Shown: positions 10,084 to 33,172, numbered from the stretch's first letter. The stretch: 64,000 nt of DNA from an uncultured Bacteroidales bacterium (GCA_964504155.1 CAZDCZ010000001.1:28451-92450); one strand, 5' to 3'. The notes: generated by a model from the letters alone, not told the origin. A program made the numbers and translations.

Positions 10084-11877
10084 TTATTTTATGATAATTG
10101 CATCAAATTTACATTTCTCTATACAAGCTCCACATTTAATACAAGTATTTACATCGATAAAATGAGGTTCTTTTCTTTCTCCACTAATTGCACCAACCGG
10201 ACAAACACGAGCACAAGCAGTACAACCAACGCAATTCTCTGTAATAATCTCATATCTCATTAAATCTTTACAAACTCCGGCAGGACATTTTTTATCTACA
10301 ATATGAGCAACATACTCATCGTAGAAATTATCTAATGTCGATAAAATTGGGTTTGGAGATGTTTGACCTAAACCACAAAGAGAAGTCTCTTTAATAACAT
10401 TACACATATTCTTCAATCTATCAAGGTCTTCCATCACAGCTTTTCCTTGAGTAATTCTTTCAAGAAGTTCGTATAATCTCTTATTACCAATACGGCAAGG
10501 AGAACATTTTCCGCATGATTCTTCAACAGTAAATTCCAGATAGAATTTAGCTACAGAAACCATACAATCGTCTTCGTCCATAACAATCATTCCTCCGGAA
10601 CCCATCATAGAACCTACAGAAATAAGATTATCAAAATCGATAGGAGTATCGAGATGTTTTTCTGTTAAGCATCCGCCCGATGGTCCACCTGTTTGCACAG
10701 CTTTAAATTTCTTTCCATCTTTAATACCTCCGCCAATTTCGAAAATCACTTCACGAAGAGTGGTACCCATAGGCACTTCTATCAGTCCAACATTATTAAT
10801 CTTGCCGGCAAGAGCAAAAACTTTTGTTCCTTTAGATTTCTCTGTACCAATTTTATTAAACCAATTAGCTCCTTTATTAAGAATTACAGGGATATTAGCA
10901 AATGTTTCTACATTATTTACGTTAGTAGGTTTTCCTAAATAGCCAGATTCTGCCGGATATGGAGGTTTAATAGTAGGTTCTCCTCTTTCACCTTCCATTG
11001 AATGAATAAGAGCCGTTTCTTCACCACATACAAATGCACCGGCACCATATCTCATTTCTATATCGAAATTAAAATCAGTACCAAATATTTTTTCTCCTAA
11101 CATTCCATATTCTCTGGCTTGCTCAAGAGCTATTTTAAGTCGTTTAATAGCAAGCGGATATTCAGCTCTGATATATATAAGTCCTTTGTCGGCACCCATA
11201 GAATAACCACAGATTGCCATTGCTTCTAATACAGCGTGTGGATCACCTTCTAGAATAGATCTGTCCATAAATGCACCAGGATCACCTTCATCGGCATTAC
11301 ACACAACATATTTTTGGTCGGCTTCGTTTTTCGATGCAAATTCCCATTTTAATCCTGTAGGAAATCCCCCTCCTCCACGACCACGAAGACCAGATAATTT
11401 TATTTCGTTTATTACATCCATTGGAGTCATCTCAGCTAATGCATTACCAAGAGCTAAATAACCCTCACGAGCAATATATTCTTCAATATTTTCCGGGTCG
11501 ATAAAACCACAGTTACGCAAAGCAATTCTAATTTGCTTTTTGTAAAAACCCATTTCTTTTGAGTTTTCAACATGCTTTTTAGTATTTGTATCGACATAAA
11601 GCAAACGTTCTACTTTTCTACCTTTAATAATATGTTCTTCGATAATTTCTTTTGCATCTTCGGGTTTAACTTCAGTATAAAAAGTATTATCGGGCATTAC
11701 CTTTACAATTGGTCCTTTTTCGCAAAATCCAAAGCAACCTGTTACAACAACCTGCACTTCGTCTTGAAGTCCTTTTGTTTCAAGTTCTTTATTAAGATTT
11801 TCAACAATCAAATCGCTTGAAGAAGCTTTACATCCTGTTCCTCCACATACAAGCAAATGCATTTTATATTTTGCCAT
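10084..11877 (-). CDS. hydB: NuoF-like flavoprotein subunit, full-length bifurcating type (HydB paralog 2)
   Basis: N-terminal Trx-like 2Fe-2S motif (CGGTGC..CFGFC). GRGGGGFPTGLKW, CNADEGDPGAF and SCGKCSPCR..CGLG are present. The C-terminus carries CVGCTACARVCP and CIKCGACIEKC. Confidence 0.93.
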   Translation of the reverse strand: MAKYKMHLLVCGGTGCKASSSDLIVENLNKELETKGLQDEVQVVVTGCFGFCEKGPIVKVMPDNTFYTEVKPEDAKEIIEEHIIKGRKVERLLYVDTNTKKHVENSKEMGFYKKQIRIALRNCGFIDPENIEEYIAREGYLALGNALAEMTPMDVINEIKLSGLRGRGGGGFPTGLKWEFASKNEADQKYVVCNADEGDPGAFMDRSILEGDPHAVLEAMAICGYSMGADKGLIYIRAEYPLAIKRLKIALEQAREYGMLGEKIFGTDFNFDIEMRYGAGAFVCGEETALIHSMEGERGEPTIKPPYPAESGYLGKPTNVNNVETFANIPVILNKGANWFNKIGTEKSKGTKVFALAGKINNVGLIEVPMGTTLREVIFEIGGGIKDGKKFKAVQTGGPSGGCLTEKHLDTPIDFDNLISVGSMMGSGGMIVMDEDDCMVSVAKFYLEFTVEESCGKCSPCRIGNKRLYELLERITQGKAVMEDLDRLKNMCNVIKETSLCGLGQTSPNPILSTLDNFYDEYVAHIVDKKCPAGVCKDLMRYEIITENCVGCTACARVCPVGAISGERKEPHFIDVNTCIKCGACIEKCKFDAIIIK

Positions 11878-11897
11878 ATTCTTATTTGTTTTATAAT

Positions 11898-12293: not shown

Positions 12294-12330
12294 ACCTATT
12301 TTTTTATTTAAAATTACTTTGTTTTTTATT

Positions 12331-12350: not shown

Positions 12351-12363
12351 TAGTCTATTATCT

Positions 12364-12906: not shown

Positions 12907-13646
12907 TTATTTAAAATTACTTTTCTGTTGTTTTCGCATTTTAATGCCATTCTTATTTCTTGAAAAGATATTTCTTCTATCTCGAAAAGAGAATATACCT
13001 TAGCTATATCGTCGATATAATGGGCATCCGAGCTTTGAATAAATGTTTTTCCTTTTAAGTACATATTTCTCTCGATAAAATCGGAATATTTTACATTCTT
13101 CGAAATTTCAAGAGCATCAACTTCTAAATCGGGCGGTAAAAAGCCTAAGTTTGCCAATATAGAATTGTTTACTCTATCGATATGTGCCGGAATAAATAAT
13201 CCTTGAAGTTGATGAACTTTTTTCTCTACTTCGGAAATACCAACATCCAATGCCGATATTAAAAGGTTTTCTTCTTGCTCAAGAATATTATCATATTTAT
13301 CGACAAGGCACTGATACCCAAATCTATTTACATCATTTTTTATATCTGTTATATGAGCATCGATAAATTTTTGAAACTCAAATAACTGATTATCATTTTC
13401 AAAGAACGTTAAGCAATGGACTTCTTCTTTAGTTGTAATTTCGGCACCTTTAATAACAAACACACCAAATTCGTCTCCAACTTCTTTCAATACTGCACAT
13501 TGCTTTGTGCTATTATGATCGGTAATTCCGATTATGTCAATTTTTTTTTCTTTAGCCCTTTTAATAATATTAACAGGGCTCATTTCTAAATCGCCGCAAG
13601 GCGAAAGAACAGTATGCGTATGTAAATCTGCTCTAAATAATTTCAT
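12903..13646 (-). CDS. PHP-domain metal-dependent phosphoesterase
   Basis: ADLHTHTVLSPCGD..ITDHN..PAHIDR..SDAH are PHP-family His/Asp motifs. The track start is 13676; the internal Met at 13646 (MKLFRADLHTHT) fits the family's N-terminus better. Confidence 0.75.
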   Translation of the reverse strand: MKLFRADLHTHTVLSPCGDLEMSPVNIIKRAKEKKIDIIGITDHNSTKQCAVLKEVGDEFGVFVIKGAEITTKEEVHCLTFFENDNQLFEFQKFIDAHITDIKNDVNRFGYQCLVDKYDNILEQEENLLISALDVGISEVEKKVHQLQGLFIPAHIDRVNNSILANLGFLPPDLEVDALEISKNVKYSDFIERNMYLKGKTFIQSSDAHYIDDIAKVYSLFEIEEISFQEIRMALKCENNRKVILNK

Positions 13647-13980
13647 TTTCTTTGAACAACTTATATAATTTGCCACTTATGTTAAAAGCTGTATCGTTTG
13701 AGCCTAACAATGGCAATCCTTCCATATTGCTTTGTTTAATTGTGTCGTCATCGGGTTTTACTCCATTAATAAGTATTACAGCGGCAAGATCTTTAAGCGA
13801 TGCTATTGCCATTACGTTTTTATGCGTTTGCAATGTTATCCATACTTGCTTTTCTTTTGCTCTTCCCATTACATCGCTTAAAAGATCGGAAACATAACCC
13901 CCATGAATTTCATTATCTAATCCTTCTTGTCCGCTGTAAACACTTAACCCTAACCTATTTATTATATCTAACACTTTCAT
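13633..13980 (-). CDS. DRTGG-domain protein (paralog 2)
   Basis: 115 aa and paralogous to 15776-16120 (GGYVSDLLSDVM vs NGFASDLMSDVL). I assign the DRTGG family from memory of this small-protein family. Confidence 0.55.
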   Translation of the reverse strand: MKVLDIINRLGLSVYSGQEGLDNEIHGGYVSDLLSDVMGRAKEKQVWITLQTHKNVMAIASLKDLAAVILINGVKPDDDTIKQSNMEGLPLLGSNDTAFNISGKLYKLFKENEII

Positions 13981-13995
13981 TTTCTTTGCTTTTAA

Positions 13996-15351
13996 TTAAC
14001 ATTTATGGTTTAAATTATTTTCACCCCAAATATTTTTTAAAATATCGTATGATTTCTCGTTATCGATAATTCCATTTTTCTCAAAATTCTTTTGAATAAA
14101 AATACATTGATCGATAACAGCTCTATTTTGAACTATATCTTCGGCCAAAGCACGGCAATTTGGAGCACCACAAACACCACAATCAATATTTGGCAAGCAC
14201 GACATAATCTCGCGTACACGTTTCATTTTATTTATAGCCACATCCATGTTTTCATCTAACTTCATCATCGATCGTGGTTTAATTTCTAATATCTTACTAT
14301 TGTCGATTAAATATTTACTATTTTTAAATAAGCTTTCATTATCGGAATTATCGGTTAATTTTTCGGCTCTTCTTTTCAGTCTGTCAACAGTTAAAAATCT
14401 GTTTGCTGTAGATAATACTCCACCGGCACAACTTTCATCACACGAACGAAGTTCAATAAAATCGACATCTTTAATCTCGTTATCTTCTACTTTTTCGAGA
14501 AACTCAATAACATTATGAATACCATCAATAGCAAAACTTCTTCCTTTAATATTAGATGCCTCACCATTTGTTAAACTCCACATTATACCTTTGGAAGAAA
14601 GGTTTTTCGATACTAAATTCTCTTCTGCAAATACTTTTTCACTAGTCTTATTATTAGTTATACTACTAAGAACCTTATTATAAACGAAATCCATATTAAT
14701 AACACCATTAATAACTGATATATCGTCTCCTACAGGACTTTTTATTGCTGCAATTTTTGCGGCGCAAGGAGTAACATAAAATATTCCTATTGCATCTTTA
14801 TCTACACCTTCTTTTATTAACTTATCTTTATAGTAAAGAGCTGCCATATCTAAAGGAGAGCGTAAGTGAACAATATTATTTACTAATGATGGAAACTTAA
14901 CTTGAATTAATCGAATAATTGCAGGACAAAAAGACGATAATAATGGTTTTTCGATATTTTTATCGTCTATTAAGTTATTAATTTCAGTATTTATTAAGTC
15001 GGCACAATGCTCAACTTCAAAGACATCGGTAAATCCTAATTCGAAAAGAGCTTTATATACATCATTAGATTTTGTTTCGTCGGGAAATTGTCCAAACAAT
15101 ACAGATGGCAATAGAGCTACTCTATTTTTATATTCGAATATTTTCTTAAAATCGTCTTGCTCAATAATTATTGCATTTACAGGACAAGCTTTAAAGCATT
15201 CGCCACAATCGACACATTTATGCTCAAACAATTCGGCTTTCCCATTACGAATACGTATTGCTTCTGTTGGACACACATTCATACACCGAGAACATCCAAC
15301 ACAAACATCTTTTTGTATCTTTAAAGCATGATGAAAGCTATTTTCCTGCAT
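13996..15351 (-). CDS. [FeFe]-hydrogenase-like sensory protein without a PAS domain (HydS-like 2)
   Basis: Two ferredoxin motifs (CVGCSRCMNVCP, CVDCGECFKACP). H-domain with SSFCPAII (14923-14937), TPCAAK and RSCDESCAGG. C-terminal 4-Cys segment CGVCGAPNCRAL..C. Confidence 0.75.
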   Translation of the reverse strand: MQENSFHHALKIQKDVCVGCSRCMNVCPTEAIRIRNGKAELFEHKCVDCGECFKACPVNAIIIEQDDFKKIFEYKNRVALLPSVLFGQFPDETKSNDVYKALFELGFTDVFEVEHCADLINTEINNLIDDKNIEKPLLSSFCPAIIRLIQVKFPSLVNNIVHLRSPLDMAALYYKDKLIKEGVDKDAIGIFYVTPCAAKIAAIKSPVGDDISVINGVINMDFVYNKVLSSITNNKTSEKVFAEENLVSKNLSSKGIMWSLTNGEASNIKGRSFAIDGIHNVIEFLEKVEDNEIKDVDFIELRSCDESCAGGVLSTANRFLTVDRLKRRAEKLTDNSDNESLFKNSKYLIDNSKILEIKPRSMMKLDENMDVAINKMKRVREIMSCLPNIDCGVCGAPNCRALAEDIVQNRAVIDQCIFIQKNFEKNGIIDNEKSYDILKNIWGENNLNHKC

Positions 15352-15357
15352 AAAAAA

Positions 15358-15771
15358 CTACTTTAAATTAACTATTATTAATAATTCTGTACCAACTCCA
15401 ACTTCACTTTTAATTTCGAATTTGCTTGAATTATTTTTTATATTTGCCAAACCCATTCCTGCACCAAAACCCATCTCACGTACTTCATCGCTAGCGGTAG
15501 AGTATCCATTCTCCATAGCCATTTCTATATCAGATATTCCAGGTCCTCTATCTTTTGCATTTATAATTATTTTATCAACATCAATATCGACAGAGATTTT
15601 TCCGGAAAATGCATGGGCAACAATATTTACTTCTGTTTCGTACAAAGCAACTACAACTTTTCTAATTATTTTTTGATTAGACATAAGTTGTTTAAGTACC
15701 TTTTTAATAGCACTTGATGCTGTACCTGCATTAGAAAAATCGCCACCTTGTATATTATACTCTAAGTGCAT
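15358..15771 (-). CDS. RsbW/SpoIIAB-like serine-protein kinase (anti-sigma-type GHKL ATPase)
   Basis: Small GHKL protein (EVNIVAHA..DRGPGI..GFGAGMGLANI). The track start is 15819. An internal Met at 15771 would leave a 4-nt gap after the DRTGG stop. Confidence 0.65.
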   Translation of the reverse strand: MHLEYNIQGGDFSNAGTASSAIKKVLKQLMSNQKIIRKVVVALYETEVNIVAHAFSGKISVDIDVDKIIINAKDRGPGISDIEMAMENGYSTASDEVREMGFGAGMGLANIKNNSSKFEIKSEVGVGTELLIIVNLK

Positions 15772-15775
15772 TTTA

Positions 15776-16120
15776 TTAATATATAGGTTTAATCCCGTTT
15801 TTATAAAGTTCTCCAACAACCTTAAACACTGTACAAGAAGACTTTATTATAACAATATCGCAATCATCTGCTAATTTTACCATCTGTTCTGATACATTTT
15901 TATTTCTTGCTACAATAACGCAAGCTATATCAGACATCTCGGCTGTTCGTATTACTTGCATATTTGACAATCCAGTAATAAGAATTATATCGTCAGAATC
16001 AAGAGTTAAAACATCACTCATTAAATCTGAAGCAAAACCATTTTCTATAGTTTTGTTAAGAAATGCTTTTCCAGAAATAACTTTTCCATTTATTAAATGT
16101 ACAATCTCTTCTATTCTCAT
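15776..16120 (-). CDS. DRTGG-domain protein (paralog 1); first gene of the 10-gene operon
   Basis: 114 aa, paralogous to 13633-13980. Confidence 0.55.
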   Translation of the reverse strand: MRIEEIVHLINGKVISGKAFLNKTIENGFASDLMSDVLTLDSDDIILITGLSNMQVIRTAEMSDIACVIVARNKNVSEQMVKLADDCDIVIIKSSCTVFKVVGELYKNGIKPIY

Positions 16121-16648: not shown

Positions 16649-19600
16649 ATGACAAAAAACAATTTAAATAAAAACCAAGTTGAAAGTTTATCGAACAATA
16701 ACTATAATTCTTCTATTTCTGAGCAAAAAAATATAGAATCTAAACTAGAAAAATATAAAGCAATATTCGACAACTCGGCAGAAGGAATTGCATATATCAC
16801 AAACACAGGAAAGATTATAGATGTTAATAAAACATTTATAAATTGTACCGGCCTTTCTATTTTACATAAAGATATAATTGGGAAACATGTATTTTCTATT
16901 GCAAAGCAATTTATAGCAGCAAAAAACATTAACAATACTCTAAAAATTGTAAAACATTTGCTCTCAGGAAAAGACATTGATTCATTTGAGCTTATTACAA
17001 AAAATAAAAAAACACTTAGAATATCCCCCAGATTTATAGAAAAACAGGGAGGAATTGTAATAATAATCAGAGACATAACTGAGACAAAAAAAATAACTAA
17101 AGCACTCCATGAAAGCGAAGAACTCCATAAGAAAATAATACAAAATCAAGGTGAAGGAATGGGAATTGTTAACACAAACGAAATATTTATATATTCCAAT
17201 CCTGCTGCTCATGAAATTTTTGGGGTGCCATTAGGCACACTAAATGGCAGAAATGTGTTTGAATTTTTAGATGAAAAAGGGAAAAAAAAGATACTTAACG
17301 AAACTAAAAAACGAATTTCCGGAAAAAGATCTACATATGAATTTAATATTATACGGCCTGATGGAGAAGAACGAACTATACTATTAACTGCTTCTCCACA
17401 AAGTAATAATAATGGGGAGATAGTAAGCACATTTGGTATATATAGAGATATTACTCAAAGAAGAAAAACAGAAATTGCTTTACAAAATAGTGAAAAAAGC
17501 TTACGTAAAGCACAACAACTCTCTAAAGTAGCTTCTTGGGAAATAGATTTGATTAATAAAAAATTCTCTTGCTCAGATGAATTTTATAATATATACGAAA
17601 TAGAAAAACAAGAGATAAAAAGCAGCACTGAAATAATAAACAAATATGTTCATCCCGATGACAAAAAGTTTTTTAAATTATCGGAAAATCGTATCCCCAA
17701 AAACGAAGATTTAACTTCTATCGAGTTTCGAATTATTACTCCAAACAAAAATACAAAATGGATACACTCTTCTAATCCTGAAATAATATATAAAAATAAA
17801 AAAGCTGTTAAACTAATTGGCATAAACCAAGATATTACAGAAAGAAAAAATGCAGAATTAAAACTTTCGCAAAAAACTACAGAACTTACAGTTTTACTTG
17901 ATTTAATACCTGCTTTTGTTTATTTTAAAGATTTTAATTTAAACTATATTTCGGTAAATAAAGCATTAGCTAAAATATCGAAATATTCAGAAAATGAAAT
18001 ACCCGGAAAAAACGACCTTGGTATTTGGGATAAAGAAACTGCAAAAAAATACAGAGATAACGATAAAAAAATACTTGATATCGGAAAACCAAAATATAAC
18101 ATAATAGAAAAAGTGCAAAGAAAAGATGGGACAACATTCTGGTCGTCTACTTCAAAAGTTCCTTATTATAATAATAAAAATATATTAAAAGGACTGATTG
18201 GTATTACTTGGGATATTTCGGAAATAAAAGGAAACGAAGAAAAATTAAAACAAGCAATTAAAGAAGCTAAAAATGCAAACAGATTAAAAAGTGATTTTCT
18301 TGCTAATATGAGTCACGAAATTCGTACTCCGATGAATGCTATATTAGGCTTCTCCGAAATTCTTAAGAGTAAACTCAGTAACTTTCCTGAATATTCGAGT
18401 TTTATTAACGGAATATATAATAATGGACAGAATCTTCTTCAATTAATAAATGACATTTTGGATTTATCGAAAATTGAAGCCAACAAACTGGAAATACAAA
18501 AAGGTACAGTTAATCTATCTAAAATTATTACAGAATTTAAGAATATTTTTTCTCTACAAATTAAAGAGAAAAAAATAAATTTCAATATTAATATCGACGA
18601 AGATCTTCCTGATGTATTACGACTTGATCAGACACGAATACGGCAAATTTTATTCAATTTAATTGGGAATGCTGTAAAATTTACCAACCAAGGAGAAATA
18701 AGAGTTTCGGTAAAATTTAGGAATAATTTAACATTAGAAAATAAAATTGATTTGTTTTTTGAAATAAAAGACACAGGAATTGGAATTCCAATTGATCAAC
18801 AAAAAGAAATTTTCGAAGCATTTGTTCAACAAGATAGTCAAAGCACACGAAAATACAAAGGCACAGGACTTGGATTAACAATAACAAAACGCTTAGTTGA
18901 AATGATGGATGGAAACATTTCTGTTTCAAGCATCCCTAATGTAGGCTCGTCATTTAAAATATTTTTAAAAAACGTTGACATTCCAAATATTAATTTAAAA
19001 GGAGTAAACAATATTACAGAAAATGTAAATCGAAATATTATTTTCGACAAAGAGACTATTTTACTTGTAGAAGACTCAGAATCGAACAGACAAATAATAA
19101 AACTGTTTCTTTCGGCACACAATTTAAATGTTATTGAAGCAAGGAATGGAAAAATAGCTCTTGATATTGCAAGAAAAATAAAGCCTTCGCTAATACTAAT
19201 GGACATACAAATGCCTGAAATGACAGGAGATATAAGCGCTAAACTTATTAAAGAAAATTCGGAATTAAAATCAATACCAATTATTGCATTAACAGCATAT
19301 ACAATAACAGATCAAATAAATAAATATAAAGATCTTTTCAACTACTACATTCTAAAACCGGTGTCGAAAAATAAATTAATAAGTGTATTAAGTAAATATT
19401 TACCCTATAAAACAACTATTAATAATCAGGAAAATTTAGAATCAATAAATTATCTTGCAGAAATAGAAAAAATACAAAATTTCGATTCTCAATTAATTTA
19501 CGAAATTAAAAGTACGATAATTCCTGTATTTTTAATTGTGTCTAAAGGTATTTCAATTGATGAAATATTAAATTTCTCGAACCAGCTAATTAAATTAGGC

Positions 19601-19738
19601 AAAAAATATAATATTTCTCCATTATTAGATTATGCAAAAGATTTACAGGCTGCAACAAATGAATTTCGTTTTGGAGAAATTGAAACACTACTAAATTTAT
19701 TTAGTAATATCTCGAATGTAATAATAGGGAAAAAATAA
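16649..19738 (+). CDS. Hybrid sensor histidine kinase (multiple PAS domains, HisKA, HATPase, receiver, C-terminal Hpt-like region)
   Basis: H-box SHEIRTPMNAILGFSE. N/G boxes NLIGNAVKFT..DTGIGI..GTGLGL. Receiver ILLVEDSESN..LILMDIQMPEMTG. Several PAS-like repeats lie upstream. Confidence 0.85.
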   Translation: MTKNNLNKNQVESLSNNNYNSSISEQKNIESKLEKYKAIFDNSAEGIAYITNTGKIIDVNKTFINCTGLSILHKDIIGKHVFSIAKQFIAAKNINNTLKIVKHLLSGKDIDSFELITKNKKTLRISPRFIEKQGGIVIIIRDITETKKITKALHESEELHKKIIQNQGEGMGIVNTNEIFIYSNPAAHEIFGVPLGTLNGRNVFEFLDEKGKKKILNETKKRISGKRSTYEFNIIRPDGEERTILLTASPQSNNNGEIVSTFGIYRDITQRRKTEIALQNSEKSLRKAQQLSKVASWEIDLINKKFSCSDEFYNIYEIEKQEIKSSTEIINKYVHPDDKKFFKLSENRIPKNEDLTSIEFRIITPNKNTKWIHSSNPEIIYKNKKAVKLIGINQDITERKNAELKLSQKTTELTVLLDLIPAFVYFKDFNLNYISVNKALAKISKYSENEIPGKNDLGIWDKETAKKYRDNDKKILDIGKPKYNIIEKVQRKDGTTFWSSTSKVPYYNNKNILKGLIGITWDISEIKGNEEKLKQAIKEAKNANRLKSDFLANMSHEIRTPMNAILGFSEILKSKLSNFPEYSSFINGIYNNGQNLLQLINDILDLSKIEANKLEIQKGTVNLSKIITEFKNIFSLQIKEKKINFNINIDEDLPDVLRLDQTRIRQILFNLIGNAVKFTNQGEIRVSVKFRNNLTLENKIDLFFEIKDTGIGIPIDQQKEIFEAFVQQDSQSTRKYKGTGLGLTITKRLVEMMDGNISVSSIPNVGSSFKIFLKNVDIPNINLKGVNNITENVNRNIIFDKETILLVEDSESNRQIIKLFLSAHNLNVIEARNGKIALDIARKIKPSLILMDIQMPEMTGDISAKLIKENSELKSIPIIALTAYTITDQINKYKDLFNYYILKPVSKNKLISVLSKYLPYKTTINNQENLESINYLAEIEKIQNFDSQLIYEIKSTIIPVFLIVSKGISIDEILNFSNQLIKLGKKYNISPLLDYAKDLQAATNEFRFGEIETLLNLFSNISNVIIGKK

Positions 19739-19771
19739 ATAAAAACAAATAAAATTAACTAAATTGATAAT

Positions 19772-20956
19772 ATGAATGCTGAAGAAATACAATTATCTAA
19801 ACCTAATGTATTAATTGTAGATGACACTGAAGAAAACTTGCGTCTATTAAGTAATCACTTATACAATAAAGGAATAAATGTGATTATAGCAAAAGATGGT
19901 AAAACGGCTCTAGAAATAGTTAACACTAAACCTCCGGATTTAATATTGCTAGATATTATGATGCCGGGAATTAATGGATTCAAAGTATGTCAAGAACTTA
20001 AAAAAAACACAAAAACTAAAAATATTCCCATAATATTTCTTACAGCTAAAACCGAAATTAACGATATTGTTAAAGGTTTTACTATTGGGGCAGTTGATTA
20101 TATTACAAAGCCTTTTAATTCTACCGAACTATTATCAAGAGTATTTACTCATATAGAACTTAAAAAATCGAAAGATATAATAAAAATACATAGTGGACAT
20201 GTGGAAGAGTTGAATGCAATACTAAATAAAAAAAATAAACAACTATACAAGCAAAACGAAGAACTAAAAACATTAAACATAACAAAAGATAAATTATTTT
20301 CGATAATTGCACACGACCTTAAAACTCCGTTCAATCAGCTTATTGAAATATCGGAATTAACCCTTATGGATATCGATAATTTAAGCTTATACGATTTAAA
20401 AGAAAATATAAGGCAAATACATTTGGCGTCGCTAAATGGCGAAAACCTTTTACAAAACTTATTAGATTGGGCGAAACATAAATTAGGTTCAATTAAATTC
20501 AATCCTCAAAAAATTATATTGTCGAAAGTTATTAATACTACATTTATTTATCTTAAAGATTTAGCAAACGAAAAAAACATTACACTTGTCTCAAATATAA
20601 AAGAAGATATTACTGTTACCGCCGAAGATGAAATGCTAAATATAATTATTCGCAACCTTATTTCTAATGCAATAAAATTTACAAATACAGGTGGAAGAGT
20701 TGAAATAAGCAATAAAGCAAACAACAATTATCAAATAATTACAATAGAAGATAATGGCATAGGTATTACACCTGAAGATTTAACAAAACTATTCAGAATG
20801 GATGAAAATTACTCAATTGAGGGTACAGCTCAAGAAAAAGGAACCGGAATAGGATTAATAATATGTAAAGAATTTATTAAGAAACATGAAGGGAAAATAT
20901 GGGTAGAAAGTAAATTAGGAGAAGGCAGTAAATTTAAATTTTCGATACCAATATAA
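19772..20956 (+). CDS. Response-regulator receiver fused to a histidine kinase core
   Basis: Receiver LIVDDTEENL..LILLDIMMPGINGF..KP. H-box-like FSIIAHDLKTPFN. HATPase NLISNAIKFT..DNGIGI..GTGIGL. No DNA-binding domain. Confidence 0.85.
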   Translation: MNAEEIQLSKPNVLIVDDTEENLRLLSNHLYNKGINVIIAKDGKTALEIVNTKPPDLILLDIMMPGINGFKVCQELKKNTKTKNIPIIFLTAKTEINDIVKGFTIGAVDYITKPFNSTELLSRVFTHIELKKSKDIIKIHSGHVEELNAILNKKNKQLYKQNEELKTLNITKDKLFSIIAHDLKTPFNQLIEISELTLMDIDNLSLYDLKENIRQIHLASLNGENLLQNLLDWAKHKLGSIKFNPQKIILSKVINTTFIYLKDLANEKNITLVSNIKEDITVTAEDEMLNIIIRNLISNAIKFTNTGGRVEISNKANNNYQIITIEDNGIGITPEDLTKLFRMDENYSIEGTAQEKGTGIGLIICKEFIKKHEGKIWVESKLGEGSKFKFSIPI

Positions 20957-21074: not shown

Positions 21075-22865
21075 CTAGTATGATTTTCTCTTTGTATAGT
21101 GAGTATGTAATAACTCGTGAGATTTATGACCAAGAGGCTCGCCCAAGAAATTTTTATAAATTTCTTTAATCTCAGGATTTTCGTGAGATTTACGAATTGG
21201 GAGTCCTTCGTCTTCGGCATAAATAGCATCTGCCCGTTTCTGACGAATTTCAGGAGTTGTAGGTATTGGTTGACCTCCGCCACCAAGACAACCACCGGGA
21301 CATGCCATAATCTCGATAAAGTGCCAATTTCCTTCTCCCGATTTAACGGCATCCATAACTTTTTTAGCATTTGTTAAACCATGAGCCACAACAGTTTTTA
21401 GTTCAACGCCATCAAGAAATTTCCAAGCATCAACAGGATTTTCAATAAGAATTGAAGCTTCCCTTACGCCTTCCATTCCACGTACAGGAGTTATATTAAG
21501 ATTATCGAATGGGACTTCTCGTTCGGTAACAATTTCGTATGCAGTACGCAAAGCTGCTTCCATAACTCCACCTGTAGCACCAAATATAACTCCTGCACCC
21601 GAAGAATTACCCATTAAGCTATCGAACTTACTATCGGACAATGAAAGAAAATCGACCCCTGTTTGCTTAATCATAACAGCTAATTCGCGAGTGGTTAATA
21701 CAAAATCGACATCTTTATATCCACTATCGCGCATTTCGGGTCGATCTGCCTCGTACTTCTTAGCAGTACATGGCATAATAGAAACAGATACTATCTTTGT
21801 AGGATCAAGTTTTTTCTTCTGGGCATAATATGTTTTAGCAAGAGCACCAAACATTTGTTGAGGAGACTTACAGGTAGAAACATTTTCTAAATAGTCGGGA
21901 TAATTATGTTCAATAAATTTAATCCAACCCGGAGAGCAAGATGTAGTCATTGGAAGTTTTATGCTACTATCTTTATCAACCAATGCTTTTTTAAGACGAG
22001 TTAATAATTCAGTACCTTCTTCCATAATAGTTAGGTCGGCAGTAAAATCAGTATCAAGAACTGAATCGAAGCCAATTTTTCTAAGAGCAGTAACCATCTT
22101 ACCTGTAACTCTATTTCCTACATCGAAGCCTAAATCTTCGCCTAAAGCAACACGAACAGCAGGAGCTGTTTGAACAATAACATGAGTATCTTCATCGTAA
22201 ATTGCGTCCCAAACTTGGTCGATATAACTTTTCTCAACTAATGCACCGGTAGGACAGCGATTCACACACTGACCACAACTTGTACAAATAACTTCAATCA
22301 TTGGATTATCGAAGAAAGTAGAAATTTTCATTTTATCGCCTTTATGAGCAACGCCTAAAGCACTAACATGTTGTAATTCGGTACAGGTTCTAACACATCT
22401 CTGACAACGGATACATTTACTATCGTCTTTGATTATAGCTGGAGAAAATCTATCAATAGTATAGTTTTTATCTTCAACAAGATCTAAGAATAAATGTTCA
22501 CCTTTTATCATATCAATTGAGAGATCCTGCAATTCGCAATTCCCATTTTTGTAACATTTAGTACAATCGGCATTATGTTCAGAAAGCAACAATTCAATTA
22601 TATGTCGTCTCGAATTTCTTACTTTAAGACTATTTGTTAATATCTCCATATTGCTAGTAGCAGGAGTAGCACATGACGCAACAAGGTTCTTAACACCTTT
22701 TTGCTCAACAACACAAACTCTACAATTACCTGCAACACATAAATCTTCGTGATAACAAAGAGTAGGAATCTTTATATTTAATTTCTTAGCTGCATCTAAG
22801 ATAGTGCTTCCTTTTTCTACACTAACTTCAATACCGTCTATTTTTAATTTAACTGTATCAGACAT
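21075..22865 (-). CDS. hydA: [FeFe]-hydrogenase catalytic subunit paralog 3, with a TSCSP variant of motif L1
   Basis: Same domain order as paralog 2. MPCTAKKYE and EIMACPGGCLGGGGQP are canonical, but L1 reads TSCSPGW (21930-21944; checked on the DNA as ACA TCT TGC TCT CCG). Confidence 0.92.
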   Translation of the reverse strand: MSDTVKLKIDGIEVSVEKGSTILDAAKKLNIKIPTLCYHEDLCVAGNCRVCVVEQKGVKNLVASCATPATSNMEILTNSLKVRNSRRHIIELLLSEHNADCTKCYKNGNCELQDLSIDMIKGEHLFLDLVEDKNYTIDRFSPAIIKDDSKCIRCQRCVRTCTELQHVSALGVAHKGDKMKISTFFDNPMIEVICTSCGQCVNRCPTGALVEKSYIDQVWDAIYDEDTHVIVQTAPAVRVALGEDLGFDVGNRVTGKMVTALRKIGFDSVLDTDFTADLTIMEEGTELLTRLKKALVDKDSSIKLPMTTSCSPGWIKFIEHNYPDYLENVSTCKSPQQMFGALAKTYYAQKKKLDPTKIVSVSIMPCTAKKYEADRPEMRDSGYKDVDFVLTTRELAVMIKQTGVDFLSLSDSKFDSLMGNSSGAGVIFGATGGVMEAALRTAYEIVTEREVPFDNLNITPVRGMEGVREASILIENPVDAWKFLDGVELKTVVAHGLTNAKKVMDAVKSGEGNWHFIEIMACPGGCLGGGGQPIPTTPEIRQKRADAIYAEDEGLPIRKSHENPEIKEIYKNFLGEPLGHKSHELLHTHYTKRKSY

Positions 22866-22898
22866 ATTATAATTTTTTAAATTTTATATACTTATTTA

Positions 22899-24062
22899 TT
22901 AGTAAATCATTTCTTCTTTAAAGTTTTCAACTATTGAAGAAAATGAATTAGCAACAGACTGTCCTAAACCACATTTAGCAGTAATTTTCATAGTATCTGT
23001 TAACTTTATTAATGTATTAAGATAAGTAGATGGTTTTTCTCCTCTTTTAACAGCTTCGAGACCTTTTCTTAATTGTTGAGTTCCAACTCTGCAAGGAGTA
23101 CATTGTCCACAAGATTCTTCTTCGAAGAACTCTACATAATTTTTAAGCACATTATACATAGATCTAGAACTATTAAAAAGCATCATAGATCCACCGGTAG
23201 GCACACCTTCGAATCCAATAATAGTATCTTTAAATTTCTTTCGAGGAACACAGAATCCTGAAGCACCACCAACCTGAACAGCTTTAGTATCTCCATCGCC
23301 AAATTCGTCAACAAAATCGGAAAGAGTCATCCCAAGTTCGAGTTCATAAATACCAGCTATAGGAGTATCTCCCGAAACAGAAAATAATTTAGAACCTCTT
23401 GAATCATCGGTACCCAATTTTTTAAATTTCTCAGCTCCAATATTATTAATCATAAATGCATAAACAAGAGTTTCTACATTATTAATAACAGTAGGCTTAT
23501 TTCTAAATCCTGCAACAGTTGGATATGGAGGTTTATTTCTTGGTTCTCCTCGTTTTCCTTCCATTGATTCGAATAGTGCGCTTTCTTCACCACAAATATA
23601 AGCTCCGCACCCCATCAATAAATGAATTTCGAAATCGTTTCCAAGCTGTTTAATAAGTATATTAAATTTATCTATTTCATTCTGCAAGTCTTTTTTTAGA
23701 AATTCATATTCGCCACGTAAATAAATATAACCATATTTAGCGCCTATTACTTTAGCACAAATAGCCATTCCTCCGAAAACCTTTTGAGGCACTCGAGTAA
23801 GAATTTCTCTATCTTTAAAAGTTCCGGGTTCGCCTTCATCGGCATTACATACTATATATTTTTCTTTGGGTTTTTCTAATCCGGTATATTTCCATTTTAA
23901 GCCGGTAGGGAAACCAGCTCCTCCTCGACCTTTTAGTCCGGATTCAAGAATTTTTTCTAATATTTTTTCATTTGACAATTTTAATGTTTTAGAAAGAACA
24001 TCTTTACAAGAACAATCTTCACTAAAAATCAGGTCAACTCTTTTAAGTCGTTTATTTGACAT
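22899..24062 (-). CDS. hydB: Short NuoF-like flavoprotein subunit (HydB paralog 3), lacking both terminal Fe-S domains
   Basis: 387 aa. GRGGAGFPTGLKW, CNADEGEPGTF and SCGQCTPCRVG..CGLG are present. There is no N-terminal Trx-like domain and no C-terminal CxxCxxCxxxCP motifs. Confidence 0.9.
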   Translation of the reverse strand: MSNKRLKRVDLIFSEDCSCKDVLSKTLKLSNEKILEKILESGLKGRGGAGFPTGLKWKYTGLEKPKEKYIVCNADEGEPGTFKDREILTRVPQKVFGGMAICAKVIGAKYGYIYLRGEYEFLKKDLQNEIDKFNILIKQLGNDFEIHLLMGCGAYICGEESALFESMEGKRGEPRNKPPYPTVAGFRNKPTVINNVETLVYAFMINNIGAEKFKKLGTDDSRGSKLFSVSGDTPIAGIYELELGMTLSDFVDEFGDGDTKAVQVGGASGFCVPRKKFKDTIIGFEGVPTGGSMMLFNSSRSMYNVLKNYVEFFEEESCGQCTPCRVGTQQLRKGLEAVKRGEKPSTYLNTLIKLTDTMKITAKCGLGQSVANSFSSIVENFKEEMIY

Positions 24063-24085
24063 AATAATAATCTTTAATATGTTAA

Positions 24086-24553
24086 TTATTTATTCTTCAT
24101 ATAATCTCTAATAATCTCAGCAACTTTCTCGGGAGTAAGTTCTGTATATGCTTCATCGTTAATTAGCATAGCCGGACCTTTATGGCACCACCCCAAACAG
24201 TTTGTTTCTAACAAAGAGAACTTTTTATCTTTTGTTGTTTCTCCGATTTTAATTTTTAACAAATCTTCAAGAGTTTCAATAATCTGTTTTTTTCCTTTCA
24301 TATCGCAAGTAATAGTTTTACAGATACGAATTACAAATTTCCCACGAGGTTCTGTATCTAGAAAAGAATAAAATGTAGCAGTTCCATATACTAAAGCTGC
24401 CGACATATCAAGTTCTCTAGCGACTTCTACCATAGCATCTTCAGAAAGATATCTTTTTTCTTTGATGATGCCTTGCAAAATAGGAAGCAAACTTTCTCTT
24501 GTTGTTCCATGTTCTCCTGCTAATTCTTTTACTAAGTCTTTAATTTCTGGCAT
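24086..24553 (-). CDS. hydC: NuoE-like [2Fe-2S] subunit (HydC paralog 3)
   Basis: CKTITCDMKG...CLGWCHKGP motif. It is the first gene of the third operon. Confidence 0.9.
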   Translation of the reverse strand: MPEIKDLVKELAGEHGTTRESLLPILQGIIKEKRYLSEDAMVEVARELDMSAALVYGTATFYSFLDTEPRGKFVIRICKTITCDMKGKKQIIETLEDLLKIKIGETTKDKKFSLLETNCLGWCHKGPAMLINDEAYTELTPEKVAEIIRDYMKNK

Positions 24554-24560
24554 TGTCTTT

Positions 24561-24613
24561 CAATTTTAAGATTTATTTGTTATTTTTTTCACACTGTTAT
24601 TTCCGTAACAGTG
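24561..24613 (-). promoter_or_regulatory. Promoter/operator site 3: CACTGTTA-N6-TAACAGTG palindrome (24592-24613), AAAAATAACAAA block and -7-like box TAAAATTG (24561-24568)
   Basis: Read directly from the sequence. The -7-like box ends 7 nt before the ATG. Confidence 0.55.
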
Positions 24614-24873
24614 CTTTTTGTCATAATTACTTAACTCACAGCTATAAATATCTTATATATAAAATCAAAATACAATGATAAAAATCATAAATAACAAAAG
24701 GAGTATGGGTACACACAACTCAACAAATAAACTTAAACAACTATTTTACAGGATCTTAAGCTAAATTTTCCATATTTATAACTATTATAAATTAAATTCT
24801 GTAAAAACCAGCATAGAAAGAGTATCAATTTTGTTTATTTTTTCAAATAAAAATTTACATTTTGCACGAAAAA

Positions 24874-24900
24874 ATGGGTAAAGCTTTATGCTTTACCCAT
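24874..24900 (-). terminator. Rho-independent terminator of the peptidase gene
   Basis: 11-bp stem ATGGGTAAAGC / GCTTTACCCAT with a 5-nt loop, followed on the minus strand by TTTTTT. Confidence 0.75.
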
Positions 24901-24920
24901 TTCATACAAATATTATTTTA

Positions 24921-32055: not shown

Positions 32056-32107
32056 TATAATAAATTTTAATTTTAATTCTTATTAATTGTATCTTATATA
32101 TTAAATA

Positions 32108-33127: not shown

Positions 33128-33172
33128 TATTTAATTATTTTTAATAATACTAATTAAATTTAACTAAGAAAA

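What the first reader, a model, noticed from the sequence alone, without database searches (positions are those of the whole stretch)
21075..24553. Operon 3: a core-only HydB (no terminal Fe-S domains) with a HydA whose L1 motif is TSCSP
Seen directly in the sequence:
- HydB paralog 3 is 387 aa. It starts just before the NADH/FMN site and ends right after the N3 cluster motif.
- It therefore lacks the N-terminal Trx-like 2Fe-2S domain and the C-terminal 2x[4Fe-4S] domain present in paralog 2.
- HydA paralog 3 is otherwise canonical, but motif L1 reads T-S-C-S-P (codons verified at 21930-21944).

Established knowledge, from my recollection of work on Syntrophus aciditrophicus: HydB subunits lacking these two domains mark NADH-dependent, non-bifurcating multimeric [FeFe]-hydrogenases.

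By straight positional alignment to CpI TSC299C300P, the Ser falls at the position of the cubane-ligating Cys300 and the relay Cys is kept. That would be a very unusual ligand set, unless the remaining Cys takes over ligation and the enzyme then lacks the relay. Either outcome is mechanistically interesting.
Basis: partly seen in the sequence, partly recalled or inferred. Interest (0 to 1): 0.65.

Follow-up and report, generated by a model that had tools for sequence, protein, structure and literature searches.

The report
NADH-only-type hydrogenase operon, known serine variant
This is an intact three-gene [FeFe]-hydrogenase operon from an uncultured Bacteroidales bacterium; both flagged oddities (a stripped-down flavin subunit and a serine where an iron-binding cysteine usually sits) are real, conserved, widespread and already described in characterised enzymes, so it is an ordinary new member of known kinds.

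Summary
The sequence observations are all correct. hydC3-hydB3-hydA3 lies at 24553..21075 on the minus strand. It encodes a 155-aa NuoE-like subunit, a 387-aa core-only NuoF-like subunit and a 596-aa catalytic subunit whose L1 motif reads T-S-C-S-P.

The short HydB has no N-terminal [2Fe-2S] domain and no C-terminal 2x[4Fe-4S] domain. It meets every published sequence criterion for non-bifurcating, NADH-dependent enzymes of the Syntrophomonas wolfei Hyd1ABC type. Its paralog in the same window meets the bifurcating criteria.

The TSCSP reading is not new or rare:
- Ser311 aligns residue for residue with Ser301 of Acetobacterium woodii HydA. That enzyme is purified, active and solved by cryo-EM. 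Its authors describe this serine as replacing a cysteine ligand of the H-cluster cubane, with normal FTIR signatures and activity.
- Serine occupies this position in about 17% of the family representatives sampled here, and in about 20% according to the literature.
- It occurs in many phyla, next to both bifurcating-type and non-bifurcating-type HydB.

Interest is low.

The parts
24086..24553 (-). hydC3: 155-aa NuoE-like thioredoxin-like [2Fe-2S] subunit. The Cys motif Cx4Cx35Cx3C lies at residues 78-123 (24185..24322).
   Evidence: ORF. Pfam PF01257, E = 2e-47. NCBIfam NuoE NF005722, 142 bits against a cutoff of 141. Motif.
22899..24062 (-). hydB3: 387-aa core-only NuoF-like flavoprotein with the FMN/NADH site and one N3-type [4Fe-4S]. 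It has no N-terminal [2Fe-2S] domain and no C-terminal 2x[4Fe-4S] domain.
   Evidence: 120 of 120 closest homologue clusters are 386-390 aa with the same two Pfam domains. The best PDB match is the non-bifurcating NAD-reducing hydrogenase HoxF 5XF9_A, 306 bits.
23808..23840 (-). HydB3 NADH-site signature DEGEPGTFKDR. T81 and K83 correspond to T. maritima HydB A232 and M234.
   Evidence: Alignment to 7P5H_B. Criterion from PMC7311640. Invariant in 120 of 120 homologues. HydB2 has GAFMDR.
23583..23612 (-). HydB3 FMN-site motif GCGAYICGEE. It has Tyr155 where bifurcating enzymes have Phe.
   Evidence: HydB2 has GAGAFVCGEE.
23256..23276 (-). HydB3 QVGGASG, in place of the GGPSG motif that is invariant in bifurcating HydB.
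   Evidence: HydB2 has QTGGPSG.
22971..23111 (-). HydB3 N3-type [4Fe-4S] ligands CxxCxxC...C (residues 318-364).
   Evidence: Present in 120 of 120 homologues.
21075..22865 (-). hydA3: 596-aa group A [FeFe]-hydrogenase catalytic subunit with M3 architecture. Its parts are an N-terminal [2Fe-2S], a His-ligated [4Fe-4S], 2x[4Fe-4S], the H-domain and a small-subunit-like C-terminus.
   Evidence: Pfam. NCBIfam NF040763, 877 bits. PDB hits: T. kivui HydA E = 4e-184, A. woodii HydA E = 1e-175, CpI E = 1e-132.
21924..21944 (-). L1 motif TSCSPGW (residues 308-314). C310 is the proton-relay Cys (CpI C299). S311 (codon 21933..21935) is at the position of the cubane ligand CpI C300 and of A. woodii Ser301.
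   Evidence: PMC10021017.
21750..21776 (-). L2 motif MPCTAKKYE (canonical).
21267..21314 (-). L3 motif EIMACPGGCLGGGGQP (canonical, both Cys present).
22254..22757 (-). HydA3 F-domain cluster ligands: [2Fe-2S] C37/C48/C51/C65; H97/C101/C104/C110; and two CxxCxxCxxxC motifs at residues 151-204.
24554..24920 (-). 367-nt leader and promoter region of the operon. The upstream S46-peptidase gene ends with its own hairpin plus T-run at about 24897..24868. A further hairpin lies at 24613..24592, about 40 nt before the hydC3 ATG.
   Evidence: Sequence read. Hairpin listed. No Rfam family matched. Sigma-70-like matches were not above the shuffle expectation.

Best explanation
hydC3-hydB3-hydA3 encodes a cytoplasmic heterotrimeric [FeFe]-hydrogenase of the non-bifurcating, NAD(H)-linked type. 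Its architectural twin is S. wolfei Hyd1ABC.

Inferred electron path: NADH donates a hydride to FMN in HydB3. Electrons pass one at a time through the single N3-type [4Fe-4S] of HydB3. They then move along the [2Fe-2S]/[4Fe-4S] chain of the HydA3 F-domain to the H-cluster, where protons are reduced to H2. The reverse direction is also possible. HydC3 carries an N1a-like [2Fe-2S] beside the flavin.

HydB3 lacks the ferredoxin-branch clusters, so no ferredoxin is co-oxidised. H2 formation from NADH is then favourable only at very low H2 pressure (tens of Pa for the characterised enzymes). At higher H2 the enzyme would run as an NAD+-reducing uptake hydrogenase.

The [4Fe-4S] part of the H-cluster is held by three Cys (C366, C522, and C526 as the bridging Cys) plus Ser311, as in A. 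woodii HydA. C310 remains the proton relay to the adt amine.

Shown here: gene structure, domain content, motifs, conservation, and residue-for-residue equivalence to characterised enzymes. Inferred: cofactor specificity, lack of bifurcation, Fe-O(Ser) ligation, and direction in vivo.
For: - The operon is tight and intact, with its own leader.
- HydB3 has only the FMN and N3 domains. It is 387 aa, against 407 aa for S. wolfei HydB1 and about 600 aa for bifurcating HydB (PMC5626996).
- All residue-level criteria of Losey 2020 classify HydB3 as non-bifurcating: T81/K83, Tyr155, and no GGPSG. The same criteria classify the paralog HydB2 in this window as bifurcating.
- Schut 2022 independently states that non-bifurcating homologues, including the S. 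wolfei enzyme, lack clusters B2-B5 and the conserved A/M/F residues.
- Deleting the HydB C-terminus in T. kivui HydABC leaves only low bifurcation activity (PMC10021017).
- The signature is invariant in 120 of 120 close HydB homologues.
- The signature is found next to TSCSP HydA in 41 GTDB species representatives.
- The best solved-structure match of HydB3 is a non-bifurcating NAD-reducing hydrogenase, 5XF9_A.
- L1: S311 aligns to A. woodii Ser301 in an ungapped TSCSPGWIKFIE block. That serine is described as replacing a Cys ligand of the A1 cluster, with unchanged FTIR and activity.
- L2, L3 and the proton path are canonical.
Against: - No biochemistry exists for this protein or for any Bacteroidota member.
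- The Losey criteria rest on a 17-sequence comparison (Fig. 4 legend) with only two biochemically characterised non-bifurcating [FeFe]-hydrogenases.
- Missing Fe-S domains can in principle be supplied in trans. From my own recollection, not checked here, D. fructosovorans Hnd carries the N-terminal [2Fe-2S] on a separate subunit. Operon 2 in this window has a separate 131-aa ORF at that position, which has no Pfam hit and which I take to be thioredoxin-like.
- NADH versus NADPH preference cannot be read from the sequence.
- The A. woodii map is at 3.4 A, so Fe-O(Ser) bonding there is modelled rather than resolved.
- In CrHydA1 the engineered Cys-to-Ser change at this position destabilises the cluster (PMC5855289). 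Natural Ser enzymes must therefore have compensating context that has not been identified.
Confidence: 0.8

Rival explanations
1. The trimer still bifurcates or confurcates. The missing [2Fe-2S] and 2x[4Fe-4S] modules would be supplied in trans by separately encoded small Fe-S proteins or by subunits of the two other HydABC-type loci in the same genome.
For: - The window encodes two further HydB paralogs with full domain sets, and a separate 131-aa ORF (no Pfam hit) upstream of HydB2.
- From my own recollection, split domain arrangements exist among characterised enzymes (the Hnd type). One search reports only that the D. fructosivorans HydB lacks the N-terminal [2Fe-2S] cluster.
Against: - Operon 3 contains only three genes, with gaps of 23 and 33 nt, and has its own leader.
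- The same three-gene layout is seen on the four other contigs that carry the identical hydA3 gene, and a core-only HydB lies directly upstream of TSCSP hydA in 37 other species.
- The residues conserved in all bifurcating BfuB proteins (A/M in GAFMDR, Phe before CGEE, GGPSG) are all replaced by the complex-I/SH-type residues. This argues for a different flavin environment, not just missing wires.
Confidence: 0.1
2. The Ser in L1 marks a degenerate or non-catalytic (sensory or pseudo-) hydrogenase whose H-cluster is not assembled properly.
For: - Engineered C-to-S at this position in CrHydA1 abolishes stable cluster binding and activity (PMC5855289).
- Some Melainabacteria TSCSPGW proteins also lack an L3 Cys (PMC3787301).
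Against: - A. woodii HydABC has the same L1 and is a highly active bidirectional enzyme.
- HydA3 keeps L2, L3 and the whole proton path.
- TSCSPGW is invariant across 120 homologue clusters, with both Ser codon families in use. This indicates purifying selection on a functional site.
Confidence: 0.03
3. Ligand migration: the cubane's fourth ligand has moved from CpI position 300 to the clade-conserved Cys332 (CpI Ala321, the STCKSPQQ motif), so the cluster is still all-Cys.
For: Cys332 is present in 120 of 120 close homologues and in A. woodii HydA, while the canonical paralog HydA2 has Ala there.
Against: - In family representatives, Cys at this position is just as common with canonical TSCCP (50 of 86 scorable) as with TSCSP (16 of 22).
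- 6 of 22 TSCSP representatives have Ala there.
- Several GTDB TSCSP proteins also have Ala there, for example L015 and L031-L034.
- The A. woodii paper assigns Ser301 to the ligand position.
Confidence: 0.02

Closest known systems
[quoted passage not shown] 2017, PMC5626996)
   Same: - Three subunits with the same domain logic: a HydA of about 63 kDa with an F-domain, a short HydB (407 aa there, 387 aa here) lacking the N-terminal [2Fe-2S] and C-terminal [4Fe-4S] domains, and a small NuoE-like HydC.
- HydB3 shares the non-bifurcating residue signature that was defined from this enzyme.
   Different: - The phylum differs (Bacillota there, Bacteroidota here).
- I could not retrieve the S. wolfei sequences, so identity and its L1 motif were not compared.
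- Activity is untested here.
Syntrophus aciditrophicus HydAB (non-bifurcating; Losey et al. 2020, PMC7311640)
   Same: - NADH-only chemistry is predicted from the same HydB criteria.
- The enzyme produces H2 only at tens of Pa.
   Different: - It is a dimer (HydAB) rather than a trimer; Losey 2020 Fig. 3 marks fused subunits among the enzymes compared.
- Here HydC is a separate gene.
- Four of the GTDB loci look like the fused type: a non-bifurcating signature with a 540-570 aa HydB.
Acetobacterium woodii HydABC (PDB 7Q4V/7Q4W/8A5E; Katsyv et al. 2023, PMC10021017)
   Same: - The L1 block TSCSPGWIKFIE is identical, and Ser301(Aw) corresponds to Ser311 here.
- Both have Cys in the S-x-C-K-SPQ motif.
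- Both have M3-type HydA architecture (588 bits).
   Different: The A. woodii HydB is a full-length (599 aa) bifurcating subunit, and the enzyme bifurcates with ferredoxin. HydB3 here is core-only.
Thermoanaerobacter kivui HydABC (PDB 8A6T)
   Same: It is the best solved-structure match to HydA3 (616 bits over residues 4-595).
   Different: It has canonical TSCCP (Cys299) and a bifurcating HydB of 630 aa.
NAD+-reducing soluble [NiFe]-hydrogenase HoxF (Hydrogenophilus thermoluteolus, PDB 5XF9) and complex I NuoF/Nqo1
   Same: - It is the best PDB match to HydB3 (306 bits).
- It shares GTFKDR, GAGAYxCGEE and PPYP, and has a single N3-type cluster.
   Different: It partners with a [NiFe] or quinone module rather than an [FeFe] H-domain. 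HoxF has an N-terminal extension that HydB3 lacks.

Membership tests
Group A [FeFe]-hydrogenase catalytic subunit (M3 architecture) | H-domain (Fe_hyd_lg_C plus small-subunit-like C-terminus) with an N-terminal [2Fe-2S], a His-ligated [4Fe-4S] and 2x[4Fe-4S]. | tested here: met
   Pfam. TIGR02512, 517 bits against a cutoff of 406; NF040763, 877 bits against 765. PDB E = 4e-184. Ligand motifs.
Group A [FeFe]-hydrogenase catalytic subunit (M3 architecture) | H-cluster motifs L1 TSCCPxW, L2 MPCxxKxxE and L3 ExMxCxxGCxxGxGQP. | tested here: met
   L2 and L3 are exact. L1 has the natural C-to-S variant at the ligand position, which also occurs in the active A. woodii enzyme.
Group A [FeFe]-hydrogenase catalytic subunit (M3 architecture) | Proton-transfer pathway residues (CpI C299, E279, S319, E282, R286). 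| tested here: met
   C310, the residues in IMEEGTELLTR, and S330 align to the CpI residues. The CpI residue roles are from established knowledge.
Non-bifurcating NADH-dependent multimeric [FeFe]-hydrogenase (S. wolfei Hyd1ABC / S. aciditrophicus HydAB type) | The beta subunit lacks the N-terminal thioredoxin-like [2Fe-2S] domain. | tested here: met
   Pfam. Only about 38 residues precede the FMN domain. The maximal ORF is bounded by the hydC3 stop codon 23 nt upstream.
Non-bifurcating NADH-dependent multimeric [FeFe]-hydrogenase (S. wolfei Hyd1ABC / S. aciditrophicus HydAB type) | The beta subunit lacks the C-terminal 2x[4Fe-4S] ferredoxin-like domain. | tested here: met
   The protein ends 23 residues after the last N3 Cys, with no further Cys.
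Non-bifurcating NADH-dependent multimeric [FeFe]-hydrogenase (S. wolfei Hyd1ABC / S. aciditrophicus HydAB type) | Thr/Ser at T. maritima HydB position 232 and Lys/Ser/Ala at position 234 (bifurcating enzymes have Ala/Glu and Met). | tested here: met
   T81 and K83 align to A232 and M234 of 7P5H_B.
Non-bifurcating NADH-dependent multimeric [FeFe]-hydrogenase (S. wolfei Hyd1ABC / S. aciditrophicus HydAB type) | Tyr instead of Phe at the FMN/NADH site (GxGA[Y/F]xCGEE). | tested here: met
   Tyr155 is present; HydB2 and the bifurcating PDB enzymes have Phe. The paper numbers this site 367. By my count of 7P5H_B the Phe is residue 312, so the mapping to the paper's site is my inference.
Non-bifurcating NADH-dependent multimeric [FeFe]-hydrogenase (S. 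wolfei Hyd1ABC / S. aciditrophicus HydAB type) | Absence of the GGPSG motif (T. maritima HydB 427-431). | tested here: met
   HydB3 has GGASG. Homologues have GGASG or GGAAG in 120 of 120 clusters.
Non-bifurcating NADH-dependent multimeric [FeFe]-hydrogenase (S. wolfei Hyd1ABC / S. aciditrophicus HydAB type) | Ferredoxin-independent NADH-dependent H2 production and H2-dependent NAD+ reduction. | not testable with these tools
   This requires purified enzyme.
Electron-bifurcating Bfu/HydABC family (Schut 2022; T. maritima, A. woodii, T. kivui) | A BfuB subunit with the additional Fe-S clusters (B2-B5 in Schut's numbering), including the C-terminal ferredoxin-like pair. | tested here: not met
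   Only the N3-type motif is present.
Electron-bifurcating Bfu/HydABC family (Schut 2022; T. maritima, A. woodii, T. kivui) | Conserved Ala and Met (GAFMDR) and Phe at the flavin/NAD site. | tested here: not met
   HydB3 has GTFKDR and Tyr155. The paralog HydB2 does meet these criteria.
Natural Ser-for-Cys variant at the [4Fe-4S]H ligand position (A. woodii HydA type) | Ser at the position of CpI Cys300 / T. kivui Cys299 / A. woodii Ser301, with the preceding relay Cys retained. | tested here: met
   Ungapped alignments to 7Q4V_A, 8A6T_A and CpI.
Natural Ser-for-Cys variant at the [4Fe-4S]H ligand position (A. woodii HydA type) | Actual Fe-O(Ser) coordination and a spectroscopically normal H-cluster. 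| not testable with these tools
   This is reported for A. woodii at 3.4 A resolution plus FTIR. It is not measurable for this protein here.
NCBIfam NF040763 'NADH-dependent [FeFe] hydrogenase, group A6' | Whole-protein score above the curated cutoff of 765 bits. | tested here: met
   HydA3 scores 877 bits. The canonical, bifurcating-context paralog HydA2 scores 902 bits. The label therefore does not discriminate NADH-only from bifurcating enzymes.

The most novel reading that the evidence does not exclude
In the Bacteroidota/Ignavibacteriota/Chlorobi-type clade to which HydA3 belongs, the Ser-ligated cubane might be functionally coupled to NADH-only operation.

- Among the 80 GTDB loci, the 35 whose HydA is at least 58% identical to HydA3 all have TSCSPGW, and all but one are paired with a core-only, non-bifurcating-type HydB; the exception (L035, Armatimonadota, 58%) sits next to a >1000-aa bifurcating-signature HydB.
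- Under this reading the O-ligand shifts the [4Fe-4S]H potential or the catalytic bias so that H2 evolution from the relatively weak reductant NADH is favoured.
- The near-obligatory Gly after Pro (TSCSP-G-W) would be the structural compensation that lets a Ser reach the iron.

That would make L1 a natural tuning knob for catalytic bias rather than a neutral variant.
Probability: 0.1. Interest if true: 0.5.

Novelty: new member of a known kind. Interest (0 to 1): 0.2.

Why it matters
Practically, it matters for annotating H2 metabolism. This Bacteroidales genome carries two bifurcating-type HydABC loci and one NADH-only-type locus. The current NCBI family name ('group A6, NADH-dependent') is given to both kinds, so the HydB signature, not the HydA name or the L1 motif, should be used to predict ferredoxin dependence.

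An NADH-only hydrogenase makes H2 release very sensitive to H2 partial pressure. That bears on whether such Bacteroidales depend on H2-consuming partners.

The serine ligand is not a discovery. It does, however, remain under-characterised: one 3.4 A map, and no redox titration that I found. This large, conserved clade is therefore a reasonable source of enzymes for studying it.

Tried and rejected
1. Ligand-migration idea (Cys332, equivalent to CpI Ala321, taking over from position 300). It looked attractive because Cys332 is present in 120 of 120 close homologues while the paralog has Ala. It was rejected because Cys there is equally common with TSCCP, and 6 of 22 TSCSP representatives have Ala.

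2. TSCSP as a marker of non-bifurcating enzymes. Rejected: of the TSCSP genes with an adjacent HydB in the GTDB loci, 41 sit next to a non-bifurcating-type HydB and 28 next to a bifurcating-signature HydB. A. woodii HydABC itself bifurcates.

3. Single origin of the Ser variant. A rough NJ tree with Fitch parsimony gives at least 12 C/S switches among 117 representatives. The number is crude because deep nodes are unresolved, but a single origin is unlikely.

4. Sequencing error or pseudogene. Rejected on conservation and codon diversity.

5. Riboswitch or known RNA in the 367-nt leader. There was no Rfam match near any gathering score.

6. Sigma-70 promoter and terminator scan. Matches were not above the shuffle expectation. 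Bacteroidota promoters are not covered by that tool.

7. HydE/F/G maturases in the window. None were found among the ORFs I scanned.

8. Column-wise association scan for residues coupled to Ser. Apart from Gly at CpI position 302, the hits look like clade markers. The GTDB set was also biased by the search pattern, which required PGW.

9. I did not run structure prediction. The tools return no coordinates, and a solved structure with the identical L1 block already exists.

Full report
**What is there**

The minus strand between 24553 and 21075 carries three tightly spaced ORFs:
- hydC3, 24086..24553, 155 aa.
- hydB3, 22899..24062, 387 aa.
- hydA3, 21075..22865, 596 aa.

The gaps between them are 23 and 33 nt. 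The upstream S46-peptidase gene ends with its own hairpin plus T-run. A 367-nt AT-rich leader then precedes hydC3, so this is a separate transcription unit.

Pfam gives the following:
- HydC3 is a thioredoxin-like [2Fe-2S] NuoE homologue.
- HydB3 has only the Nuo51 FMN-binding domain (residues 39-200) and the NuoF [4Fe-4S] region (305-385).
- HydA3 has the full M3-type set: Fer2_4, NADH-G_4Fe-4S_3, a 2x[4Fe-4S] module, Fe_hyd_lg_C and Fe_hyd_SSU.

The paralogous HydB2 in the same window (10084..11877, 597 aa) additionally has an N-terminal thioredoxin-like [2Fe-2S], an SLBB domain and a C-terminal pair of Fer4 motifs.

**It is conserved, not an accident**

The 120 best database clusters for HydA3 reach down to 76% identity. 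They come mostly from Bacteroidales/Bacteroidota MAGs (those carrying a source name), and all carry TSCSPGW with canonical L2 and L3. The 120 best clusters for HydB3 are all 386-390 aa with the same two Pfam domains. All carry DEGEPGTFKDR, GxGAY[IV]CGEE, GGA[SA]G and the four N3 cysteines.

The identical hydA3 gene is on record on 16 contigs; the four shown have the same gene neighbourhood. Across 80 species-representative genomes, the Ser is encoded by TCN codons 63 times and by AGY codons 16 times. That pattern indicates long maintenance of serine rather than a recent slip from TGY.

**The HydB question**

Losey et al. showed that S. wolfei Hyd1ABC is an NADH-dependent, ferredoxin-independent heterotrimer. 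Its subunits are a 63-kDa HydA, a 407-aa HydB and a small HydC, and its HydB lacks the N-terminal [2Fe-2S] and C-terminal [4Fe-4S] domains (PMC5626996).

Their 2020 paper adds residue-level criteria (PMC7311640):
- Bifurcating beta subunits have Ala/Glu at T. maritima HydB position 232 and Met at 234. Non-bifurcating ones have Thr/Ser and Lys/Ser/Ala.
- Bifurcating ones have Phe at a position near the FMN site, where non-bifurcating ones have Tyr.
- Bifurcating ones have GGPSG at positions 427-431.

I aligned HydB3 to the T. maritima chain 7P5H_B and counted residues:
- T81 and K83 fall on A232 and M234.
- Tyr155 falls on the Phe of GAGAFVCGEE.
- GGASG falls on G427-G431.

HydB2 has GAFMDR, GAGAFVCGEE and GGPSG. 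The two paralogs in one genome therefore sort cleanly to the two classes.

One caveat on numbering. The paper numbers the Phe/Tyr site 367, while by my count the Phe before CGEE in 7P5H_B is residue 312. I take the two to be the same site, because the paper equates it with the NADH-contacting Tyr of Nqo1. That mapping is my inference.

Further support comes from three sources:
- Schut et al. independently state that non-bifurcating homologues, naming the S. wolfei enzyme, lack clusters B2-B5 and the conserved Ala/Met/Phe residues (PMC9304861).
- Deleting the HydB C-terminus in T. kivui HydABC leaves only low bifurcation activity (PMC10021017).
- The best solved-structure match to HydB3 is the HoxF subunit of a non-bifurcating NAD+-reducing hydrogenase. 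5XF9_A scores 306 bits, ahead of the bifurcating HydB/BfuB chains at 257-287 bits.

It remains a prediction.

**The L1 question**

HydA3 aligned to solved structures shows that Ser311 lies opposite Cys299 of T. kivui HydA and Cys300 of CpI (TSC299C300PGW), with no gap. The preceding Cys310 is the equivalent of the proton-relay Cys.

The decisive point is the second-best PDB hit, A. woodii HydA (7Q4V/7Q4W/8A5E). It has the identical block LPM-I-TSCSPGWIKFIE. The row break in the alignment places its Ser at residue 301 and ours at 311.

[quoted passage not shown] The anaerobic A. woodii map is at 3.4 A, so the Fe-O bond is modelled rather than resolved. Because that enzyme is fully active, the retained Cys must still serve as the relay. 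This last step is an inference, from the established fact that relay-Cys variants are nearly inactive.

Earlier literature had already noticed the variant:
[quoted passage not shown] They found this surprising because their engineered C115S in CrHydA1 lost the cluster. C115 in their numbering neighbours Cys114 and so corresponds to CpI C300 (PMC5855289).
- Di Rienzi et al. recorded TSCSPGW in Melainabacteria hydrogenases in 2013 (PMC3787301).

**How common, and where**

I searched one representative per 50%-identity cluster of about 15 billion proteins. The best 150 hits contain 127 scorable L1 motifs, of which 22 (17%) are C-S and 105 are C-C. The sample is centred on a TSCSP query, so the figure is approximate, but it agrees with the literature.

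A scan of GTDB species representatives returned TSCSPGW HydA genes from the following groups:
- Bacteroidota
- Ignavibacteriota-type lineages
- Chloroherpeton
- Spirochaetota
- Armatimonadota
- Verrucomicrobiota
- Planctomycetota
- Bacillota
- Syntrophus and Smithella
- Actinomycetota
- Acidobacteriota
- Nitrospiraceae
- Myxococcales
- Ilyobacter
- a Melainabacteria-type 'Cyanobacteria' MAG

I classified the HydB gene directly upstream of each TSCSP hydA:
- 41 have the non-bifurcating signature. Of these, 37 are 460 aa or shorter. The other 4 are 540-570 aa with a Cys-rich N-terminal extension, which I take to be a NuoE-type fusion (not checked).
- 28 have the bifurcating signature. Of these, 13 are about 600 aa.
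- The remaining 15 of those 28 are longer than 1000 aa. One I checked (L050) is a HydB fused to a GltD/Nfn-like Fer4_20 plus Pyr_redox_2 module.

The serine is therefore not a marker of NADH-only enzymes. A crude NJ tree with parsimony suggests a dozen or so C/S switches among 117 representatives.

Within the nearer relatives of HydA3 (identity of at least 58%: Bacteroidota and other FCB-group lineages, plus single Spirochaetes and Armatimonadota MAGs), all 35 loci have TSCSPGW, and all but one (L035) are paired with a core-only HydB.

**An idea I tested and dropped**

HydA3 and all 120 close homologues have Cys332 in S-T-C-K-SPQQ, where HydA2 and CpI have Ala (CpI A321). This suggested that the cubane ligand might have migrated. 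Across the representatives, however, Cys at this position accompanies TSCCP 50 times and TSCSP 16 times, and six TSCSP proteins have Ala. There is no specific coupling.

The only local residue clearly associated with Ser is the Gly after Pro (TSCSP-G-W). It is present in 20 of 22 Ser-state representatives against 38 of 105 Cys-state ones (Fisher p = 2e-6). This is not corrected for phylogeny. It may reflect a backbone adjustment for the shorter Ser side chain, which is speculation.

**Most likely mechanism**

Shown here:
- An intact operon.
- A flavin/NADH module of the complex-I/SH type with a single [4Fe-4S].
- A NuoE-like [2Fe-2S] subunit.
- A catalytic subunit with a full electron-transfer F-domain, canonical L2 and L3, a canonical proton path, and Ser at one cubane ligand position.

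Inferred:
- NADH reduces FMN in HydB3.
- Single electrons pass via the N3-type cluster into the HydA3 cluster chain and on to the H-cluster.
- No ferredoxin branch exists.
- H2 production is therefore thermodynamically confined to very low H2 pressure. Purified S. aciditrophicus HydAB gave 2.2-40 Pa at NADH/NAD+ ratios of 1-5 (PMC7311640). At higher H2 the enzyme would reduce NAD+.
- The H-cluster cubane is ligated by three Cys plus Ser311, and C310 relays protons.

Confidence is about 0.8 for the overall assignment. The main rival, bifurcation with modules supplied in trans, is at about 0.1.

**Comparison and novelty**

Architecturally and by signature, this operon is a member of the S. wolfei Hyd1ABC-type non-bifurcating class. 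At L1 it belongs with the A. woodii-type Ser variants. Both kinds are published.

NCBI already names close homologues 'NADH-dependent [FeFe] hydrogenase, group A6'. The underlying model NF040763 scores the bifurcating-context paralog HydA2 even higher (902 versus 877 bits), so that name carries no information on ferredoxin dependence.

The paper searches and readings I made turned up no biochemical work on a Bacteroidota member. 'New member of a known kind' is therefore the fair rating. Interest is 0.2.

Noticed in passing
window 1428-3933 (-), 4463-7542 (+), 7789-15819 (-): The window holds two more HydABC-type loci.
- Operon 1 has HydC (165 aa) and a full-length HydB (646 aa). Its HydA presumably lies beyond the window start.
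- Operon 2 contains, in order: a kinase-like protein, a HydS-like protein (451 aa), a PHP protein, a HATPase, a 131-aa protein, HydB (597 aa), HydA (591 aa, TSCCPAW) and HydC (162 aa).
- A second HydS-like putative sensory [FeFe] hydrogenase (620 aa) sits next to a SpoIIE-type phosphatase.

Operon 3 has no HydS-like gene of its own.
   Followed up: partly
window 16649-20956 (+): A PAS-rich hybrid histidine kinase (1029 aa) and a response-regulator/kinase (394 aa) converge on the 3' end of hydA3. The arrangement is the same on the four other contigs shown that carry the identical hydA3 gene. Whether they regulate operon 3 is unknown.
   Followed up: no
window 30352-34045 (-): An acyl-CoA dehydrogenase with a C-terminal extension (567 aa) is followed by ETF-alpha (Pfam) and a 290-aa ORF that I assume to be ETF-beta (not scanned). 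This is a possible bifurcating Bcd/EtfAB-type module. If so, it would supply reduced ferredoxin to the two bifurcating-type hydrogenases.
   Followed up: no
window 21924-21926 (Gly313 of HydA3); family-wide: The Gly after Pro in L1 (TSCSP-G-W) is strongly associated with the Ser state. It is present in 20 of 22 Ser-state family representatives against 38 of 105 Cys-state ones (Fisher p = 2e-6, not corrected for phylogeny).
   Followed up: partly
window about 21402-21434 (HydA3 residues about 478-487): HydA3 has an insertion of about 10 residues (NPVDAWKFLD) relative to HydA2, CpI, T. kivui HydA and A. woodii HydA. It is enriched among TSCSP sequences and is probably a clade marker.
   Followed up: no
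window 24592-24613: A 9-bp hairpin (CACTGTTAT...ATAACAGTG) lies in the leader about 40 nt upstream of the hydC3 start codon. It has no Rfam match.
   Followed up: partly
L050 2906-5962 and 14 other loci (for example L035, L037, L043, L045, L046, L053, L073): TSCSP HydA genes in Smithella, Syntrophus, Verrucomicrobiota, Planctomycetota and others sit next to HydB proteins of more than 1000 aa. These carry the bifurcating signature. In the one I checked (L050) HydB is fused to a GltD/Nfn-like Fer4_20 plus Pyr_redox_2 module.
   Followed up: partly
literature versus 7P5H_B and 7T2R_B numbering: Losey 2020 gives T. maritima HydB '367' for the Phe/Tyr site, and Schut 2022 gives A. mobile 'F182'. 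By my residue counts on the PDB chains, the Phe of GAGAFVCGEE is 312 and 282 respectively. These look like numbering slips or alignment-column numbers in the papers.
   Followed up: partly
NCBIfam NF040763 on window 8296-10071 and 21075-22865: The 'NADH-dependent [FeFe] hydrogenase, group A6' model scores the bifurcating-context paralog (902 bits) above the NADH-only-context one (877 bits). The product name is therefore uninformative about cofactor coupling.
   Followed up: yes
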